Part shown: positions 1 to 62,606 of the stretch, one piece after another
Position numbering within the stretch: the stretch's first letter is position 1
Layout of the letters: each line of letters starts with the position of its first letter
Made by a program: the position numbers and the translations under genes
Assembly (NCBI RefSeq): GCF_009914755.1
Contig: NC_060932.1
Source of the DNA: the human T2T-CHM13v2.0 reference genome, Homo sapiens
DNA length: 64,000 nucleotides
Strand: one strand, 5' to 3'
Notes under the pieces: model-generated
Database searches by the model: none
Told to the model about the DNA's origin: nothing
The model's input: only the letters and a program-made list of their open reading frames with translations

Positions 1-3413
<3,413 letters not shown>

Positions 3414-3949
3414 AGTACTAAAACAATGCTAATTCTAGTAATTTTTTTAGCATTTTTCACCTGTGATGCCTACATTTTTACGAGAAATAACTTTACAACT
3501 ATAATAATTAAAAATTTAAAAAGTTAAATAAGATATAATAATTTGATTTTACAACAATGTAGCTTCTGATGCATATTTCATGTTTTACCCTATTTACGGT
3601 ATTTTTAAACAATATTTAAACATCCTCAGTAAAGTCTCATTCATAGAGAAAATTAAACTTTGAGGACAAAGAAATAAATGATTTTTGTTCAATATTTCTC
3701 AAAAGATAACATTTTTACTGTTATTTTAACACTAGAGTGTGAAATAAAAACCAGAAATATGAATCTGGTTTTTTTTGTTAGTTTGGCTTTATAAAAATCA
3801 TGAACTACATTGGAGCTTCCAAGCTAAAGTACCTTCAAATACAATTAGTTACAGCTAGTCTCTTCAGTTGCATAATGAATATTGGCACTGGGAAACCATT
3901 CATTTTCCACAATGATTTTGTATTTATATAAAGTGGGTCAACTTTGTAT

Positions 3950-4113
3950 CATGTGCAAGTATCCCAACCTCTCAAATCTTCAGCAATCCCATCTGAAAAA
4001 TAGTAAATAATAATCATAACCCCTAGTAGGATTATTAAGAGACTACTGTGAGATAATATGGGTAATACATTTAGCACAGTGCCTGGTACATAAAAGGCAT
4101 TCAACACATATTA
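3950..4113 (+). mobile_element. MIR SINE fragment
   Basis: Resembles the MIR core and 3' end (cccatctgaaaaatag...ttagcacagtgcctggtacata...tattagc). Confidence 0.7.
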
Positions 4114-5076
4114 GCAACTTTGTGTGTCTATCAGTACATATATATAAAGTATATAATAATAAATATCTCTTAATGATATAAACATCTGCAGAGATAATAA
4201 TTTGGTAACTAGAAATATTTTAAAATATTTTTTTCCTAAAATCCTATTAATCAGGTCTGAAAAGTCTGTTCCTTCCAATTGTTCACTTTAAATCAAATTG
4301 CCTATTTTCCTTCTACCTTTTTTAAAAGTTTCAAAAACAAAACAAATCTGCAATCTCTGCAATAGCAGAATTTATAGTCTAAAATAAGACTGATACTTTT
4401 AGTCATTGTAATGCTATGGCAGAAATAATAACATAGAACTTTAACTGGGATGCTTTGCAAGCACACGAACACAGACATCTAATAGCATGGGGCAAGGAGA
4501 CAAAGAAGAAATGCATACTCCAGGAAATAATGTGTAATCCTATCCTTGAAAGATGAGGAGTTGCCATGTGAAGAAAGGGAATAATGAGAGAAATAGCATT
4601 TCAGGCCTAGGGAAAAGAATGTCAAAAACTCTGAAGTGTAAGTGAGCCAGGTAGGGGGCCAGGACCTTCCAATAGCACACTGTTACTAGAACAGTGGTGT
4701 GACATTAACTGAAATTTTAAAGAAATACTTGTGTCTGGGCTTAATCTCATAGGTGATGCTTTGGTGGGGGCTGTGTATGTGTGTGTGTGTATTTGTGTTT
4801 AAATTCCACAGTGCATATTGCTACACGACCCTAGCAGAGGATTTGGTTGGGGTAAGTTTGGGACAGCTGTAGATGATTCTGGGGAGACAGAAAATGACAG
4901 ATCACAGTTAATTTCCTCAGTCATATAACAAACTAAAACTTTATCCTGTAGGTAACAAGACATCAATGACAGCTTTAAGCAGGAGGTTAACATTGACAGA
5001 TTTTCATTTCAAATATATCACTTTCATATCAGAAAGGAAAATGAATTTGAGCTAGATTGGAGGTAGAGGACACAGA

Positions 5077-5634
5077 TGTCAGATACAGTAAGTTCCTCTT
5101 CAAAGGTTTAATTTCTGACTTCCTTGTTCTTTGTTCTCGAGATCAACTTCTTTGTCCCTTCTTCTAAGCTACCTGCTCTGTAAACAACTTCTCCCGCCAG
5201 TCCCAATCTGTAACTCACATCTCTTCCTTATTTGGAAAGAGTCCTCTTTACTCCTGGCTACCCATTCTGTAAACTGCCCCTCCCGCTGAAACTACCCTTC
5301 TCCTGCCTTTGCCGTGCCCTGACAGGCCCAAACATGCCCTGTACCATAAAGGACAGCCTCTCCCTTCCCACCTAACTTGCCATATTCAATTTTAAACAGT
5401 AGCCAATTGGGTCAGTTTAGATTGTGCTGTCCAACTCGAGCAAATGGGGACAGGACACAGAAGCAGGGACTAGCCCTGTTAGGGATAAAACCCCCTTCCC
5501 TCCTTTGTTCGGTGTGCTCTTGCAGTCGTGACTGACACAGGCAGCACCCTTCTGCAGAAGTAAATTTGCCTTGCTGAGAAGTCTTTTGTTTGAGTGCTCA
5601 TTTTCTTTGTGACTCTGAGCTGTTGTTTCTAACA
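5077..5634 (+). repeat. 5' LTR (LTR10B-like)
   Basis: TGTCAGATACAGTAAGTTCCTC...TTTCTAACA; CCAAT box, GATAAAA TATA-like box and AGTAAA poly(A)-like signal; roughly 8-9% different from the 3' LTR by eye. Confidence 0.92.
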
Positions 5635-5637
5635 ATT

Positions 5638-5655
5638 TGGGGACCTGTCCCAGAT
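5638..5655 (+). other. Primer-binding site, tRNA-Pro-like
   Basis: TGGGGACCTGTCCCAGAT lies 3 nt after the 5' LTR and matches the tRNA-Pro PBS TGGGGGCTCGTCCGGGAT at 13/18 positions. Confidence 0.7.
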
Positions 5656-6136
5656 CCCATTCTCCTCTGGGGAAGGGTCTCTAATCACCTCTCGTGAGGA
5701 GACACATCCTGCTGCCTCACTGTGGTGGCCTCAGGGGTAAGGAATCTGGACCCACCCAGTGTGACGAATAAACACAGACTCTCAGCAACGCAGGAAGAGG
5801 AGGCCTATAAATGCCACAGTGATCAGGTAACTCTGTGCACAGACCAATGTAAGAAAAGCCGTGGGGGCAGGGAAGTACTTCCTTGGTGGTTGAGACATCC
5901 TGGAGGTTAAAAGTGTGTGATTGAGACACACAACTGAGTGTGAAGTGAAAGTAGGGGAGTGCAAGAAATTTCCACTCGTGGGGGTTGAGGCTCCAGGGAA
6001 AATGGTGCAAGAAATCTCTAGTAGGAGAGGTTGAGCCCCACAGAGTCTCCAGGGAAAAAGTTGCAAGAAATCTCTAGTAGGAGAGGTTGGGTCCCATAGA
6101 CTCAGAAAACTCTGGGAAACACCTAAAACTTCCAGG

Positions 6137-53331: not shown

Positions 53332-55796
53332 CCCTGACACTATTTTCTTACCATAAAGTAGGGAAGATCATACCTTCTGAATTGACTTCATAGGATCAAG
53401 TAAAGACAGAAGGAGATAAGGTGTGTGAAAACACTTGGAAAACATGAAAAGTTGTATTGAAGCATAAGACTTAGTTAATATTATTATATTGGTCATCACA
53501 AGCCGAACCAAGTGGCAAATATTTGACAATGACATTAACCACAGTGTAGTAATCTGTCATTTTAAAGATGGCACAAAGATAGAGACAAGAAAGAAAAAGA
53601 AAGCACGCATACAATTTGCAACAGTATCCAATCAGTAATATTTTGAAGTCAGCCTTTTGACATATTCAAAGTAACACCAAGACCTATCTCACAGTAGTCC
53701 AAAGAAGGTGAATAGTTCATATTTTCCAACAGTATATAAGAATATTATGACTGAGATTCTCTTCTATTTGAAAAAATAATTCAGCATGGAAAATGTCAAT
53801 AGAGCTTTCATTTGCAAACAACTTCACATTTGCATGCAAATCACTTTTACACACATACACCCTACTGGCTTGACCTCACATACATTTCATAAGAAGCAAG
53901 TAAAGTCAAGAAAGTCAACCATGAGGTAAACAACATCTGTATCAATAGTGTGGTCCCAGTACACTGGCCTCTGAAAACAGAACAGAAAGAGAGATGAAAA
54001 CAATGATCAGGTGCAAAATGGAGAGAAGAGAACACTCTCACCTATCTCAAAGAATATTTCTTCATATCTTTCTTGTTGATTGTACCAGTGGGAAGCTTTT
54101 AAAAGATTGTAGAGCCCTGCTCTCGTACCCAGGTTTATTGCATCTTTGGATTGGCCAAAATTTATCAGAAACCCTGTTGAACTGGAGCCTATAAATGCAA
54201 GCTTGGACCCACATAGAATCATTAGCTTCTTGCTTTGTAGACTTTTGCATCTTTACATATACTAGTTCTCTTCTGTCCCCAGGAAGTCCATTATCATCAT
54301 GACAATGGGGTTTCTTCCTCAAATCTAAGGTGTCCTATTGATATGATAATAGTTTATGCCATCTTTTGAAGGTTAATTTATATTTTTAAAATATAGCCTT
54401 AAGAGGTCAGTGAAAAAAATCTTTAAAGGTGAATCTTCAGATAATATGATCTCCAAATGAGAATATATATTTGGGTAGGGATCTTATTTTTACAAACTAT
54501 ACAACTAATCAAATACAGATAAAAGTAATGTAATGATTACATGTAGATGATCTAGTTGCAACAATATGGTAAAATTAATGTCAAATATTGATGTCCAGAG
54601 ACTGTTAAATACTGCTGAAGTATCTCTGAATCACAAGTATCTATATGAGTATGATTAGTAGATAAACCTAAAATACACAGAGCTGAACAAAAATGAAGTC
54701 ATACAATGATAATTAACTTGCAGCACAAACTCAAGTATGCGTGCAACCACATTTCTTTATTTTTAATAAAAAAAATTAAATCTGCCTTCAAGCCAGAAAA
54801 TCAGTATCAGGCATTAATACTCTATAGCCCTTCTCACTCATATCACCTTATTCAGAACAGAAGAAGGCATCTTTTCTCACTACTCTGATAACTATTGAGA
54901 TCTTTCTGTCCCTGCCTACAGAATTCTTGACGTTTGGTGGCTCTCAGTGCCTATGCAATATTTGAAACTTTGTTCTGAGGCTATGGTTCCTGCCTCATGG
55001 CCAAGCGCACAGGTGCTCTAGAAAACCATCCTTTCTGGAGTCTTGATACCACTCTTGCATGTTGCCACAAAATAGGATGTGAATGAATACTCCTTGTAGA
55101 ATCTTCCAACCCCATCCTCCTACTAGTCTGTCAAAGTCTCTCTATTCCCTTTTGCTGTTCCCAAAGGTACTCTCTCCCTCTTTCTTTTTTCTCCTCCCAT
55201 CTCAGGAACCAAACATAAACTCGTTAGTGTCTATGAGCTTTGCTCTTGGCAAAAGTTCCCAAAACACAAAAGTATAAAAGATCTGGCAATATGCTTGGTC
55301 ATGACCATGAAGAAATAATACAGGAAGTACAACCACAGATTAAAATCTCAATACCTTAATCTTCACCAACATATTAAATGCTGCTTCCCGCCCCCCGCCC
55401 CCACCCCGCCCCACAGAGCTAAAGTTCCATCAACTCTGGATGGCTTACTTTTTTCTTTTTATGACTAAAAACTGCACCTCTAGCACTCGTTAGTGATTTG
55501 AAATAAATGCTACTTTTCTTAACTAGAATAGCACCCTTAGGGCCATGCAAGAGAGGGTCCTGCTAAAGATCCCCTGTTTTAGAGGACCCTAAATATGACA
55601 AACATACAAAACTAAATTATTACTGAATACCTATTTTACTAGGACCTGGTGCTCAGGACTGGTACACTATGACCCAGGACCCTAAAACTGCTGCCTTGAC
55701 TAATACCGTTCAGGCCCAGAGAAATGCTTCTCTATATCTTCCCTTACGTTCTTTTTTTTTTTTTTTTTTTTTTTTTGCAATTAAGATATTTTAACA

Positions 55797-55802
55797 TTTA
55801 TT
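55797..55802 (-). terminator. AATAAA polyadenylation signal of the transduced transcript
   Basis: TTTATT on the + strand, 20 nt from the start of the terminal poly(A) tract. Confidence 0.85.
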
Positions 55803-56051
55803 AATAAAAGCCTAAAGTGTTCATTGTATATCACTCTTGGATCGAATTAGGCAGATTTTAATTAAAAGATTACTACTAACAAATAACAATGATGAGATTT
55901 GCAGGGGCTAATGCTTAAACCAGGAGATTTATGCCTTATTAAAATGAATTCCTCTAGTTTACAATCATTTTCTACAAGTCAGAGCAGCACAAAGAACTGC
56001 CTAAGATCACAGAACATTTTGGATCTAAGCAGACCTTATGACCAATCTTTT

Positions 56052-56532
56052 CTTTTTATTGACACATAAGAGTTATACATATTTATGGGGCACATGTGAT
56101 ATTTTGATACATGTATATACTGTGCAATGATCAAATGAGAATAATTGGGATATTCATCACCTCAAACATTTATCATTTCTTTGTGTTGAGAACATTCCAG
56201 ATTTTTTCTTTTAGCTATTTTGAAATATACAATAAATTCTTGTTAACTATAGTTGCCCCACTCTGCTACAGAAGACTAGAACTTATTCCTTCTATCTAAC
56301 TGTATTTTTGTACCAATTAACCAACCTCTCTTTATCTCTCCCTCCGTGCTCCCCTTCCCAGCCTCTGGTAACCACTATTTTACTCACTGTCTCCATGAGA
56401 TCAATTTTTTATTATTCAGCCGTAAAAAAGAATGAGATCCTGTCATTTGCAGCAACATGAGTGGAACTGGAGGACTTTAAGTGAAATAAGCCAAGCACAG
56501 AAAGAGCAATATTGTACATTCTTACTCATATG
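56052..56532 (-). mobile_element. L1MA 3' end with 5' inversion, inside the transduced segment
   Basis: 56052-56410 antisense L1MA 3' UTR; 56411-56532 sense (tattcagccgtaaaaaagaatgagatcctgtcatttgcagcaac). Confidence 0.8.
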
Positions 56533-56864
56533 ATCATACTTTTCGGTAACTGTGAAAACTGAGATGTATAAGGGTAGCGAATATCAGCGGTGGAATTAGA
56601 TCTCAATTTCCAATTTCCCAACAATTCTGTTTGGAGGTTCTTTTATTACATCAAACAGTTGTAACAGCCCGCAAGGTCTAGGCTGAGTTTTGAAGAGAAA
56701 ATTGTTTTCTCAGAGGCAAATTTCTAGAAAACTGATAAAGTCTATAGTAACTCTCTCCAACTGGTAGAAGAAACTGATGGCATCTAGTGGAGGGAACACT
56801 CAGAGTATGCTAAAGGCTTGAAAGATTAAAGAAACAATGGCTTCTAAATTATGCTGATAACCTA

Positions 56865-56903
56865 TTAGTTGGTGCAAAAATAATTACTTTTGCACCAACC
56901 TAA
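56865..56903. mobile_element. Internally deleted MADE1 (Hsmar1 MITE)
   Basis: TA-TTAGTTGGTGCAAAAATAATTACTTTTGCACCAACCTAA-TA: two TIR ends with TA duplications. Confidence 0.85.
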
Positions 56904-57056
56904 TAGAAGAAATTCTCTTTATTGTTGTAATAGCGCATTGGCCATTAATAGCATTTGTGGTGAAGTTCAAGAAGGGTCAGACTGGTAAATTATAGCAAGG
57001 CTCACGTTGTGTAGGGAGTTGTTTTTTTTTTTTTTTTTTTCCTTGTTGAGGTTTGT

Positions 57057-57088
<32 letters not shown>

Positions 57089-57294
57089 TATTATACTCTA
57101 AGTTTTAGGGTACATGTGCACATTGTGCAGGTTAGTTACATATGTATACATGTGCCATGCTGGTGCGCTGCACCCACTAATGTGTCATCTAGCATTAGGT
57201 ATATCTCCCAATGCTATCCCTCCCCCCTCCCCCGACCCCACCACAGTCCCCAGAGTGTGATATTCCCCTTCCTGTGTCCATGTGATCTCATTGT

Positions 57295-59825
<2,531 letters not shown>

Positions 59826-62606
59826 TAAACACAGCAAAAAAATTGAATGTTAGAAGGTTTTGAGCTAGAGAAAAAACCTTGTCAAATTCTTCCTTTTATA
59901 GAGCATGAATGTAATAGAATATTTCATAATGAAAAATCATTTCCCAGTATGCTGGGCATCCATCTTTTTTTCCTTTTCTTTGTATTCCAAGTCACAATTC
60001 CACAGATATCTATGAATTAATTGAATCTTTACAGCATTTATGCAAGGTAGCCTAGAAACATTTTCAATGTTAATGCATAGTACTCTTAAGTGTATGTGTG
60101 TGTGTGTGTGTATACATATACATATATGTATGTCAGTATAGACATAACATGCAGGAAGCTTGACACCAATTTTTCACATTGGCAATGATAGTACCTACTG
60201 AAAACTAGAATTGTGAGAAGCCTCCTCATAATAAAAAATTCAATAAGAATAAAATTTTCAAAAAATATTAATTTCGTTATTTAAATAACATTAGAATGGA
60301 TATTTATTAATTATAAGTTGTATTTTACTTTTGAATTTCCTCAAAAAATTTGAATACTTGAGAATAAATTAATTTTTAATATGCATGAAAATTATTGTAC
60401 TCTAATTTATAATTTCGTATTTTAAAGTTTATACACTGAACAAAATTATATCTTATTTTTTATCCTTCACATTATCGCTGTTAAAAAAATAAAAGTATGC
60501 AAAAGTATCTATTATAAAACCATAATCGGGCAAGTAAAAAGAATATTATAAATAAATACATAGTAATTTATAAATTATAAGTGTTTACTACTGATTTAAA
60601 CATTGAACTTCTCTTAACAGAATACCTAGTTATGCACAATAAAAGTTGAATTCAAACAGATATATTTTGCTACTTTTTATCCTAAGAAACCATAGCTTTA
60701 CATATATTTTTTCATTTTTTTATTATGAAGGTATATTGTTCAATGAGTTTGATAGAACATGTTTTATTTGACAGTTGGATAGTTTTACACATAGCTTTTA
60801 AATACGTATTTAGACATCTTGTATATGAGAGCCTCTCTTTGGACTCTGGCCCTGACCCCTCATTACTGAAAGCAGGCCTGTAAACTGAAATAGTAAGATA
60901 ATGCAAACAGATCCATTTTCCCAGATTCCGACCTTTAGAAATAGCCAACAGGCCTAGACATGATTGATTTCCTGGCCCCTAAAGGTGAACTGTTGACATT
61001 ACAGGTAAACTTCCAGGACTCATTCTGTTCCTCTCCTGCTTCTTTTAAATTCCTCTTCTATTCTGTTGTTAACTCTTAGTTCTCACCTACAGGTTGTGAA
61101 ATAGCTATTTGTGCATTCTGCATTGTGTTTTGTATTTAGGTTTTGATCTTGGCTTAAGGTTGAGTCACCATGCAATTGCCAGCTTCCCTGATGGCTTGAG
61201 TAGTGAGGCTCAGTCTGGGCCACTTAGGAGCCTGTCCTCGTCTTTGGAGACTCAGCTGGAACCTGGCAGAATTAGCCCAGATTGCATTGTAGGTGGGAAG
61301 TCAGACAATTAACACCAATTCATTATTACCATGGAAACAAGATAAAGAAATCACTTTAATATAGGAAGGAAGAAGTTTTTCTTTGTATATCAAAAACCCA
61401 CATATGCAAAATACTACCAAAAATTCTACATATGTCATCTACACTTACAAATGTGTCAAGGCCTCTCTGTGGAATTCCATTTCTTTACTTAAATTAAAGG
61501 ATGTTTCTATCTCTGAAACAGACATGCTAAATATTATCTGTCACATGTATTTCTGTACCTTGTCTTATTAAATTTTAATGTTTGCTCAGTGAAATAACAT
61601 TGAATAAATCAATGCTAATAAGTATCAACATCTAAAATTCCATGTCTTGCATATATACCTGTCACCTCAGCATTACTATTCTGTACTTTAGAGAAATAAC
61701 AGGTAATTCAATTACCAAAAAACACATGAGAAAAACAAGATAGGAAGTAAATACCACATTTTCTGCGAACACTTTTTATTTTAGCTATTAAGAATTAAAT
61801 CCCTTCACTATTAGCCGCCCAAATACCTTCTGTGTGCAGTCTTGGTCAGAGATTGCATCTTTTCTGTTCTGACAGAAGCTGCAGGCTACAAACTCGCTAA
61901 GCCTTTTCCCATTATTTAACCACAAGTGACCCAAGCTCATCTAATGCACTGCTATTGGATAGAACTTTGGTCTTGAGCTAGAGATGCAGAAGCATGAGAA
62001 ATAATTGGAGGCAAAACTTAATATCCAGCAGTCATGCACCAGTATGGCCCTACTAGGTTTTTAGTTACAGACCATTCAGAGTATTCAGTGTTTGTATTAT
62101 ACAAAGAGATATATATTTTGAAAATTACCTACTCCTAGTTAGAGGTAATTCAACACAGGAACAGTGATAAGTGATGGCAAACTACTCCAGATGCTTAGTG
62201 TATCTTTCCTGCTTCCGTGGATTTGTCTATTCCCTAAACCCTGTCATCTGGGTTTCTACTTATCCTGTGGACACTCAATGCTATTTTGTCTAAAATGAGC
62301 AGGACTGGTCTCCTTTGCTTGCAAGAATATCTCTGTTCTATCCTACAATACAATGCTTCTGAAAAATAACATTTTTAGAGAAGTTTATAATGAAGAATTA
62401 AAGTTGATTAATATTCAAAAATAATCAGAATAACCACAAAATTTAACAATTGTAACAACCATCCCAAGAAATTATCCTAATAAGTAACAATGAAATGCAT
62501 TCATTTGGTGATTTTCAGAGTGCTTTTCCATCTATTACCTTACTTGACAATGGCAACAAGCAAGAGAGACCAGAAGGACAGAAAATGTTATTCCAATTTT
62601 ATGCAC

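What the first reader, a model, noticed from the sequence alone, without database searches (positions are those of the whole stretch)
57022..57089. Second 15-nt tag between poly(A) tracts: evidence for serial transduction
Seen in L1 sense: 3' end, A-tract with one G, CAAACCTCAACAAGG (57041-57055), A19, then the 1.25-kb cargo starting CAACTCCCTACACAACG. Inference: the parent L1 itself carried a short transduction from a grandparent element, so the tail records three loci. Established: short tags embedded in poly(A) define active L1 transduction lineages.
Basis: partly seen in the sequence, partly recalled or inferred. Interest (0 to 1): 0.7.

Follow-up and report, generated by a model that had tools for sequence, protein, structure and literature searches.

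The report
L1 tail recording three genomic loci
A copy of the human jumping gene LINE-1 on chromosome 8 carries a 15-letter stamp from a known active copy on chromosome 9 and a 1,245-letter stamp from another spot on chromosome 9 that holds no copy in this genome, so it is likely the grandchild of the active copy through a missing intermediate.

Summary
Observation confirmed base for base: L1 3' end, A20-G-A13, the 15-nt tag (57041-57055), A19, a 1,245-nt cargo and a final A-tail, all inside one 15-bp target-site duplication. The tag is the flank of a full-length, two-ORF L1HS at chr9:124.97 Mb (the known 9q32 source), which sits in an Alu tail; the tag is that Alu's TSD. Two more CHM13 insertions (chr1, chr11) and two published polymorphic ones (chr10, chr13) carry it; the published table calls all four 'solo'. 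The cargo comes from chr9:83.05 Mb, which has neither tag nor L1 in CHM13, and no parent was found in a table of 3,728 non-reference full-length L1s. Serial 3' transduction through a missing parent is the best reading (0.72). Caveat: the chr8 L1 body shares none of seven derived bases of CHM13's 9q32 allele. An early allele is the likely cause (a tagged chr10 copy also lacks the one I could test), but a chimeric or converted body is not excluded (0.18). Known mechanism, apparently unreported pedigree: new member of a known kind, interest 0.42.

The parts
55739..55753 (.). Target-site duplication, copy at the L1 3' side (15 bp)
   Evidence: 100% identical to 59745-59759; pre-insertion site reads TTCTT/GA on +, an L1 endonuclease-type site (consensus recalled)
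55754..55776 (-). Final poly(A) tail of the insertion (25 A's counting 2 from the TSD)
   Evidence: not present at the donor, which continues ATAATG
55797..55802 (-). AATAAA in the cargo, 20 nt before the final tail; likely the signal that ended the parent's transcript
   Evidence: 10-30 nt spacing as in PMC13009371
55777..57021 (-). 1,245-nt transduced cargo from chr9:83,045,311-83,046,555 (empty site in CHM13)
   Evidence: only full-length second copy in the genome search, 5 substitutions in 1,245
57022..57040 (-). A19: inferred poly(A) tail of the missing parent (2 A's also match the donor)
   Evidence: chr11 sibling has an A-tail at the same point
57041..57055 (-). 15-nt tag = TSD of the Alu that hosts the 9q32 L1HS; first 8 nt end the L1's own 20-bp TSD, last 7 nt are true flank
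   Evidence: two copies at chr9:124,969,335-349 and 124,975,702-716 around Alu plus L1
57056..57089 (-). A20-G-A13 tract; G-A13 is shared by all six tagged loci
   Evidence: 4 loci in CHM13; 2 published rows
57090..58737 (-). L1HS-Ta 3' part, positions 4368-6015 of the 9q32 element
   Evidence: 7 mismatches in 1,648 to 9q32, 1 mismatch to three other L1HS copies
58738..59744 (+). Inverted L1 piece, positions 2287-3293; 3294-4367 deleted (twin-priming structure)
   Evidence: 4-nt microhomology with the TSD at the outer junction
59745..59759 (.). Target-site duplication, copy at the L1 5' side

Best explanation
The chr8 insertion is an L1HS-Ta copy whose tail carries a tag from the full-length L1 at chr9:124.97 Mb (9q32) and a cargo from an L1-free site at chr9:83.05 Mb, and it likely arose by two successive 3' transductions through an inferred parent that CHM13 lacks. 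Step 1 (shown): an old Alu inserted at 9q32 and duplicated the 15-mer; a full-length L1HS later inserted into the Alu's A-tail. Step 2 (product shown in siblings, event inferred): transcripts ran through the L1's tail and were cut just after CAAACCTC or just after the full 15-mer; the AAGAAA made by the G in the tail lies 18 and 25 nt before these two ends and may be the signal (untested). Step 3 (inferred): one such RNA inserted, near full length, at chr9:83,046,556, giving a parent with tail A(n)-G-A13-tag-A(n). Step 4 (inferred from shown anatomy): the parent read 1,245 nt further to an AATAAA, and this RNA inserted on chr8 by twin priming. Step 5 (inferred): this happened early, from a 9q32 allele that had not yet gained the variants of the CHM13 allele; the parent has since been lost or is very rare.
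For: Tag = Alu TSD next to a 6,015-nt L1 with 338-aa and 1,275-aa ORFs. The locus lies 620 nt from an exon for an SNX7-like PX domain, matching source 9q32-1 in PMC13009371 S1. Siblings chr1:210.25 and chr11:109.06 Mb; chr10 and chr13 rows with one-G tails like chr8. Cargo unique to chr9:83.05 Mb, no tag there, AATAAA 20 nt before the tail, one TSD around everything. The tagged chr10 copy shares ORF1 Q133 with 9q32 yet has ORF2 P149 like chr8, where CHM13's allele has A149: tagged offspring without a CHM13-allele variant exist. Two clocks agree: L1 9/2,655 = 0.34% (CI 0.16-0.64) and cargo 5/1,245 = 0.40% (CI 0.13-0.94); 2 versus 7 private changes is not a significant rate difference, p = 0.18. 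Two-tag cascades and 'proxy' elements are described.
Against: The parent was not seen: empty in CHM13, no TSD or position match in PMC8647825 Table S2 (the hg38 position rests on a recalled offset), no second offspring in CHM13 (1 exact hit; 12 two-mismatch hits against 12 control). chr8 shares 0 of 7 derived bases with CHM13's 9q32 allele, while chr1 shares 7 of 7; no internal base ties the chr8 body to 9q32. An untagged full-length L1 at chr5:21.21 Mb shares 4 of the 7 and an untagged chrX copy 3 of the 6 it covers, in a non-nested pattern, which my reading must explain by one allelic recombination. The donor junction is only weakly endonuclease-like: 2 mismatches, as at 24% of local A-run starts.
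Confidence: 0.72

Rival explanations
1. The tail (G-A13-tag) is from 9q32 but the L1 body is not: reverse transcriptase switched templates inside the A20 run onto another common Ta-1d RNA, or the body was later gene-converted, in the parent or in chr8. 9q32 would then have been born with 5085G/5086A/5245T/5938T, inherited from an upstream element.
For: 0 of 7 derived bases shared; the chr8 body is 1 mismatch from three unrelated copies. chr5:21.21 Mb shares four of those bases, lacks ORF1 Q133 and has its own parent site at chr4:83.30 Mb, whose flank begins AAG and could explain the second G in the 9q32 tail. The tail of chr8 differs from 9q32 exactly upstream of G-A13.
Against: It needs a second chimeric event for chrX, which has the three 3' UTR variants but not 5085/5086/5245. 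One-G tails also occur in chr10 and chr13. The chr4 parent is absent from CHM13 while 9q32 has no deletion row in the held part of PMC12350158 Table 18, which fits 9q32 being the older.
Confidence: 0.18
2. No L1 ever sat at chr9:83.05 Mb. A cellular RNA ending at the cargo's AATAAA was reverse transcribed first, and the enzyme jumped, using two A's of homology, onto the poly(A) tail of a tagged 9q32 L1 RNA.
For: The parent is unseen in CHM13 and in Table S2 of PMC8647825; no sibling with the same cargo; the junction fits the endonuclease motif only weakly.
Against: The structure equals ordinary partnered transduction; empty donor sites are common (two proxies in PMC13009371; chr5:21.21 Mb from empty chr4:83.30 Mb, with the same T|AAxAA junction type). 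Chimeras of this order are rare (recalled; one search found no passage on it).
Confidence: 0.08
3. The tag and A19 are native to the donor locus, or a chance look-alike.
For: A bare 15-mer is expected about 5.5 times per genome.
Against: The donor lacks both. The tag has its own origin as an Alu TSD, and G-A13-tag follows an L1 end at 4 loci against 0 in the control.
Confidence: 0.01

Closest known systems
Multigenerational L1 transduction cascade and 'proxy' elements (PMC13009371, section 10 and supplement 1 read)
   Same: An offspring keeps the first source's tag plus a second tag from an intermediate; a truncated reference L1 carries the flank of a source missing from the reference.
   Different: Their cascade ends in a tumour and the intermediate is observed; their two proxies (Yp11.2-3, 19q13.31-1) have sources that still segregate. 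Here the event is germline, old, and the intermediate was not found.
9q32-1 source L1 (hg38 chr9:112,798,107-112,804,159, minus; PMC13009371 S1 row)
   Same: Same strand, length about 6.05 kb, host gene with an SNX7-like PX exon beside it; listed as active in several tumour data sets.
   Different: The row lists source activity; the germline family chr1, chr8, chr10, chr11, chr13 and the Alu-TSD origin of the tag were not found in my searches. Four members are classed 'solo' in PMC12350158 Table 18.
14-member chr11 transduction family (PMC6425141, passages read)
   Same: Lineage progenitor with several alleles, offspring that became sources in turn, family joined by short 3' tags.
   Different: There each sequenced member shares internal variants with both progenitor alleles; chr8 shares none with the one 9q32 allele I could see.
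LRE3, L1RP and AC002980 short-tag lineages (recalled; the paper was not held)
   Same: Short tags embedded in poly(A) mark an active lineage.
   Different: Different source and tag; not compared here.

Membership tests
Partnered L1 3' transduction | L1 3' end, A-tract, non-L1 sequence and final poly(A) inside one TSD | tested here: met
Partnered L1 3' transduction | Non-L1 sequence maps to another locus, in the L1's sense, ending 10-30 nt after a poly(A) signal | tested here: met
   chr9:83,045,311-83,046,555; AATAAA 20 nt before the tail
Partnered L1 3' transduction | Source L1 directly upstream of the cargo's donor site | tested here: not met
   site empty in CHM13; not in Table S2 of PMC8647825; parent inferred
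9q32 short-tag family | Tail carries the sequence that follows the 9q32 L1 | tested here: met
   29-nt exact match G-A13-tag
9q32 short-tag family | Shares derived internal bases with the source | tested here: inconclusive
   0 of 7 with the CHM13 allele; other alleles not available; the ORF1 marker Q133 lies in the part chr8 lacks
Serial (multigenerational) transduction | Two tags from two loci in the order source-first, each closed by an A-tract | tested here: met
Serial (multigenerational) transduction | Intermediate element observed with both its own TSD and the first tag | not testable with these tools
   needs pangenome or archaic genomes; only CHM13 could be searched (header)
Proxy element (PMC13009371) | Truncated reference L1 carrying the flank of a source absent from the reference | tested here: met
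   that the source still makes insertions was not tested
L1HS-Ta | ACA trinucleotide and G near the 3' end (motif recalled) | tested here: met
   GATGACACATTAG and TAGAGTATAAT
Twin-primed 5' inversion | Inverted upstream piece, internal deletion, microhomology at the target junction | tested here: met
   positions 2287-3293 inverted, 3294-4367 missing
Human-specific insertion | Empty site in apes | not testable with these tools
   no relatives are offered for this genome

The most novel reading that the evidence does not exclude
chr8:79.60 Mb is the only surviving trace of an extinct source L1 at chr9:83.05 Mb, born from the founding allele of the 9q32 hot L1 one to three million years ago. 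Its tagged and untagged relatives (chr1, chr5, chr10, chr11, chr13, chrX) are dated snapshots of one source locus that has stayed active from early Ta-1d times to present-day tumours while its alleles mutated and recombined.
Probability: 0.4. Interest if true: 0.62.

Novelty: new member of a known kind. Interest (0 to 1): 0.42.

Why it matters
The mechanism is known, so a specialist would not be surprised by the class. The value is in the pedigree. First, four of four tagged polymorphic insertions in the held part of a 1,019-genome catalogue are classed 'solo', so the germline output of the 9q32 source is undercounted, and a short tail motif recovers it. Second, the chr8 copy predicts a source L1 at an exact base, chr9:83,046,556, which any pangenome can test. 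Third, offspring that differ in which source variants they carry make the life span and allelic history of one hot L1 testable, and they warn that assigning sources by internal variants can fail where the tail tag succeeds.

Tried and rejected
Tag native to the donor: rejected. Tag as chance: rejected. Two further hits of G-A13-CAAACCTC (chr12:127.76, chr16:5.38 Mb; 2 of 6 hits, control 1) have no L1 end and no second tail and were dropped as chance. Search for siblings with A-tail plus cargo start: none beyond chr8. The chr8-private base 3214A occurs at 5 other loci; 4 are 95-96% identical older copies and one (chr4:70.62 Mb) is 99.0% over 401 nt with three further differences, so no close relative was identified. 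chr10 as parent of chr8: rejected, chr8 lacks its ORF2 changes at 244 and 247 (read by eye). chr5:21.21 Mb as a direct child of 9q32: rejected, it carries a cargo from chr4:83.30 Mb. MELT difference strings for chr10 cover only bases 1-419 and were uninformative. Rfam: no match in 55000-60500. One search gave no usable result. A recalled ovarian-tumour paper with an 18-nt chr9 transduction could not be checked.

Full report
Observation. The whole insertion spans 55754-59744 between two identical 15-bp copies (55739-55753, 59745-59759). From the L1's 3' side it holds a final A-tail, a 1,245-nt cargo (55777-57021), the tagged tail, L1 positions 4368-6015 and an inverted piece 2287-3293, with 3294-4367 missing: a twin-priming structure. 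The 3' UTR has the Ta motifs (motifs recalled).

Where the tag comes from. A bare 15-mer is expected about 5.5 times per genome. With five A's in front it has 3 hits against 0 control hits: chr8, chr9:124,969,335 and chr11:109,059,866. At chr9 the 15-mer occurs twice, 6.4 kb apart, around an Alu and a 6,015-nt L1 with ORFs of 338 and 1,275 aa. It is the Alu's TSD; the L1 inserted into the Alu's A-tail with its own 20-bp TSD, A12-CAAACCTC. An exon 620 nt beyond the L1's 5' end encodes the start of an SNX7-like PX domain (E 7.5e-07). This fits source 9q32-1 (hg38 chr9:112,798,107-112,804,159, minus, intron of ENSG00000148158; the name SNX30 is recalled) in PMC13009371 S1, a row with non-zero counts in the tag, xTea, PCAWG and Tubio column groups (128 and 6 in the last two by my reading of column order; sub-headers not seen).

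The family. A gapped pattern needing the L1 end and the tag start finds 4 loci, control 0: the source, chr1:210.25, chr8 and chr11. chr11 is a 30-nt L1 end with the full tag; chr1 ends after CAAACCTC and is identical to the source over 1,649 nt. Both have the source's two-G tail. Table 18 of PMC12350158 (file cut when stored) has the tag in 4 rows, all classed 'solo': chr1, chr11, a 6,087-nt insertion at chr10:60,243,149 and one at chr13:76,791,307; the last two have one-G tails like chr8. G-A13 is constant in all six tagged loci. The AAGAAA it creates lies 18 and 25 nt before the two cleavage ends, whereas the L1's AATAAA lies 37 and 44 nt before them in the source; that AAGAAA is the working signal is an untested inference.

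Where the cargo comes from. The only full-length second copy among the 40 candidates scored is chr9:83,045,311-83,046,555, with 5 substitutions. It ends 20 nt after an AATAAA. The junction AT|AACAA is 2 mismatches from the endonuclease consensus, which 24% of local A-run starts also reach; a 1-mismatch site lies 3 nt upstream (9% by chance). This is weak evidence. No parent was found in Table S2 of PMC8647825 (3,728 elements by its text) by TSD, by gene name or by position; the hg38 position, about 70.87 Mb in TRPM3, rests on recall. The chr9 insertion rows of PMC12350158 Table 18 appear to lie in the cut part, so that table does not test the parent. No second offspring exists in CHM13. The held part of Table 18 includes deletion rows for chr8 and chr9 and 514 'partnered' hits but no row for the chr8 insertion or the 9q32 L1, which suggests, but does not show, that both are fixed or nearly so.

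The result against the simple reading. chr8 and CHM13's 9q32 allele differ at 9 of 2,655 L1 bases. Seven are derived in 9q32 (2427G, 5085G, 5086A, 5245T, 5906T, 5932C, 5938T): 0 of 29 close copies carry the six in the 3' part (these 29 were the best hits to chr8, so the set is biased) and 0 of 6 carry 2427G. chr1 has all seven; chr8 has none and is 1 mismatch from three unrelated copies. So no internal base ties the chr8 body to 9q32. Three findings bear on this. The tagged chr10 copy shares ORF1 Q133 with 9q32 but has ORF2 P149, like chr8, where the CHM13 allele has A149; its identity is fixed by its TSD. An untagged 1,007-nt copy at chrX:128.71 Mb has 5906T, 5932C and 5938T but not 5085G, 5086A or 5245T. 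An untagged full-length copy at chr5:21.21 Mb has 5085G, 5086A, 5245T and 5938T but not 5906T, 5932C, 2427G or Q133, and carries a cargo from an empty site at chr4:83.30 Mb. The pattern is not nested. It fits stepwise change at one long-lived source with one recombination between alleles, chr8's parent being the earliest offspring. It also fits a 9q32 element born with four of the variants, if chr8 and chrX are both chimeric or converted. I favour the first because it needs one ordinary event instead of two rare ones, and because both clocks agree: 0.34% (CI 0.16-0.64) for the L1 and 0.40% (CI 0.13-0.94) for the cargo, with 2 versus 7 private changes not significant (p = 0.18). At recalled rates of 0.5 to 1 x 10^-9 per base per year this is roughly one to three million years, with wide error.

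Mechanism and odds. Serial 3' transduction, 9q32 to chr9:83.05 Mb to chr8, from an early allele: 0.72. Tail from 9q32 but body chimeric or converted: 0.18. No parent, template jump from a cellular RNA onto a tagged L1 tail: 0.08. Native or chance tag: 0.01. Shown: anatomy, both donor loci, the Alu-TSD origin of the tag, the siblings. Inferred: the parent, the order of variants, the age, the poly(A) signal for the tag.

What is known. PMC13009371 describes a two-tag cascade and two proxy elements, neither on chr8 (section 10, supplement 1 part 1, S1 rows and passages read). PMC6425141 describes a 14-member family whose members share internal variants with the progenitor (passages). Full-text searches found 0 papers with the tag, 0 with the source's coordinates and 0 with TRPM3, L1HS, transduction and retrotransposition together; listings showed no account of this locus. 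Passages of the CHM13 repeat preprint, PMC9311842, PMC13192797 and PMC10883270 did not name it; PMC12016303 had none of my terms. PMC12350158 and PMC8647825 were used through supplement searches (main text of the first not read; cells of the second cut at 400 characters). Supplements I could not see may list this event: Table S13 of the CHM13 repeat preprint, Table 19 and the cut part of Table 18 of PMC12350158, and the tables of PMC9311842. Three papers were not held.

Verdict. It is a new member of a known kind: a germline two-tag pedigree from a known hot source through an unseen parent, with an unexplained lack of shared internal variants that a pangenome look-up can settle. Interest 0.42.

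Noticed in passing
L073/L054 (chr5:21,209,652-21,215,850) and L074 (chr4:83,303,277): Full-length L1HS carrying a 3' transduction of at least 151 nt, 0 mismatches, from a chr4 site with no L1 in the 6.2 kb upstream: a second proxy with an absent parent. It shares four derived bases with the 9q32 allele.
   Followed up: partly
L066+L072 (chrX:128,710,121-128,711,127): Untagged 1,007-nt L1HS with its own TSD that shares the three 3' UTR variants of the 9q32 allele but not the three upstream ones.
   Followed up: partly
L039 (chrX:11.29 Mb) and L049 (chr6:84.19 Mb): Both tails begin with the same 27-nt sequence, in L049 followed by a new A-tract: another short-tag pair, probably a known Xp22.2 lineage (recalled).
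   Followed up: no
L028, L040 tails: chr18:25.68 Mb and chr12:126.31 Mb L1HS copies also have short tags between A-tracts.
   Followed up: no
window 56868-56899: 32-nt near-perfect palindrome in the cargo, MADE1-like (name recalled), plus an old inverted L1 fragment at about 56050-56530; both were moved with the cargo.
   Followed up: no
L016/L017, ORF2 of the 9q32 element: The CHM13 allele has ORF2 changes A149 (endonuclease domain), E1035 and V1088 against P, T and A in chr8; allelic activity differences are possible.
   Followed up: no
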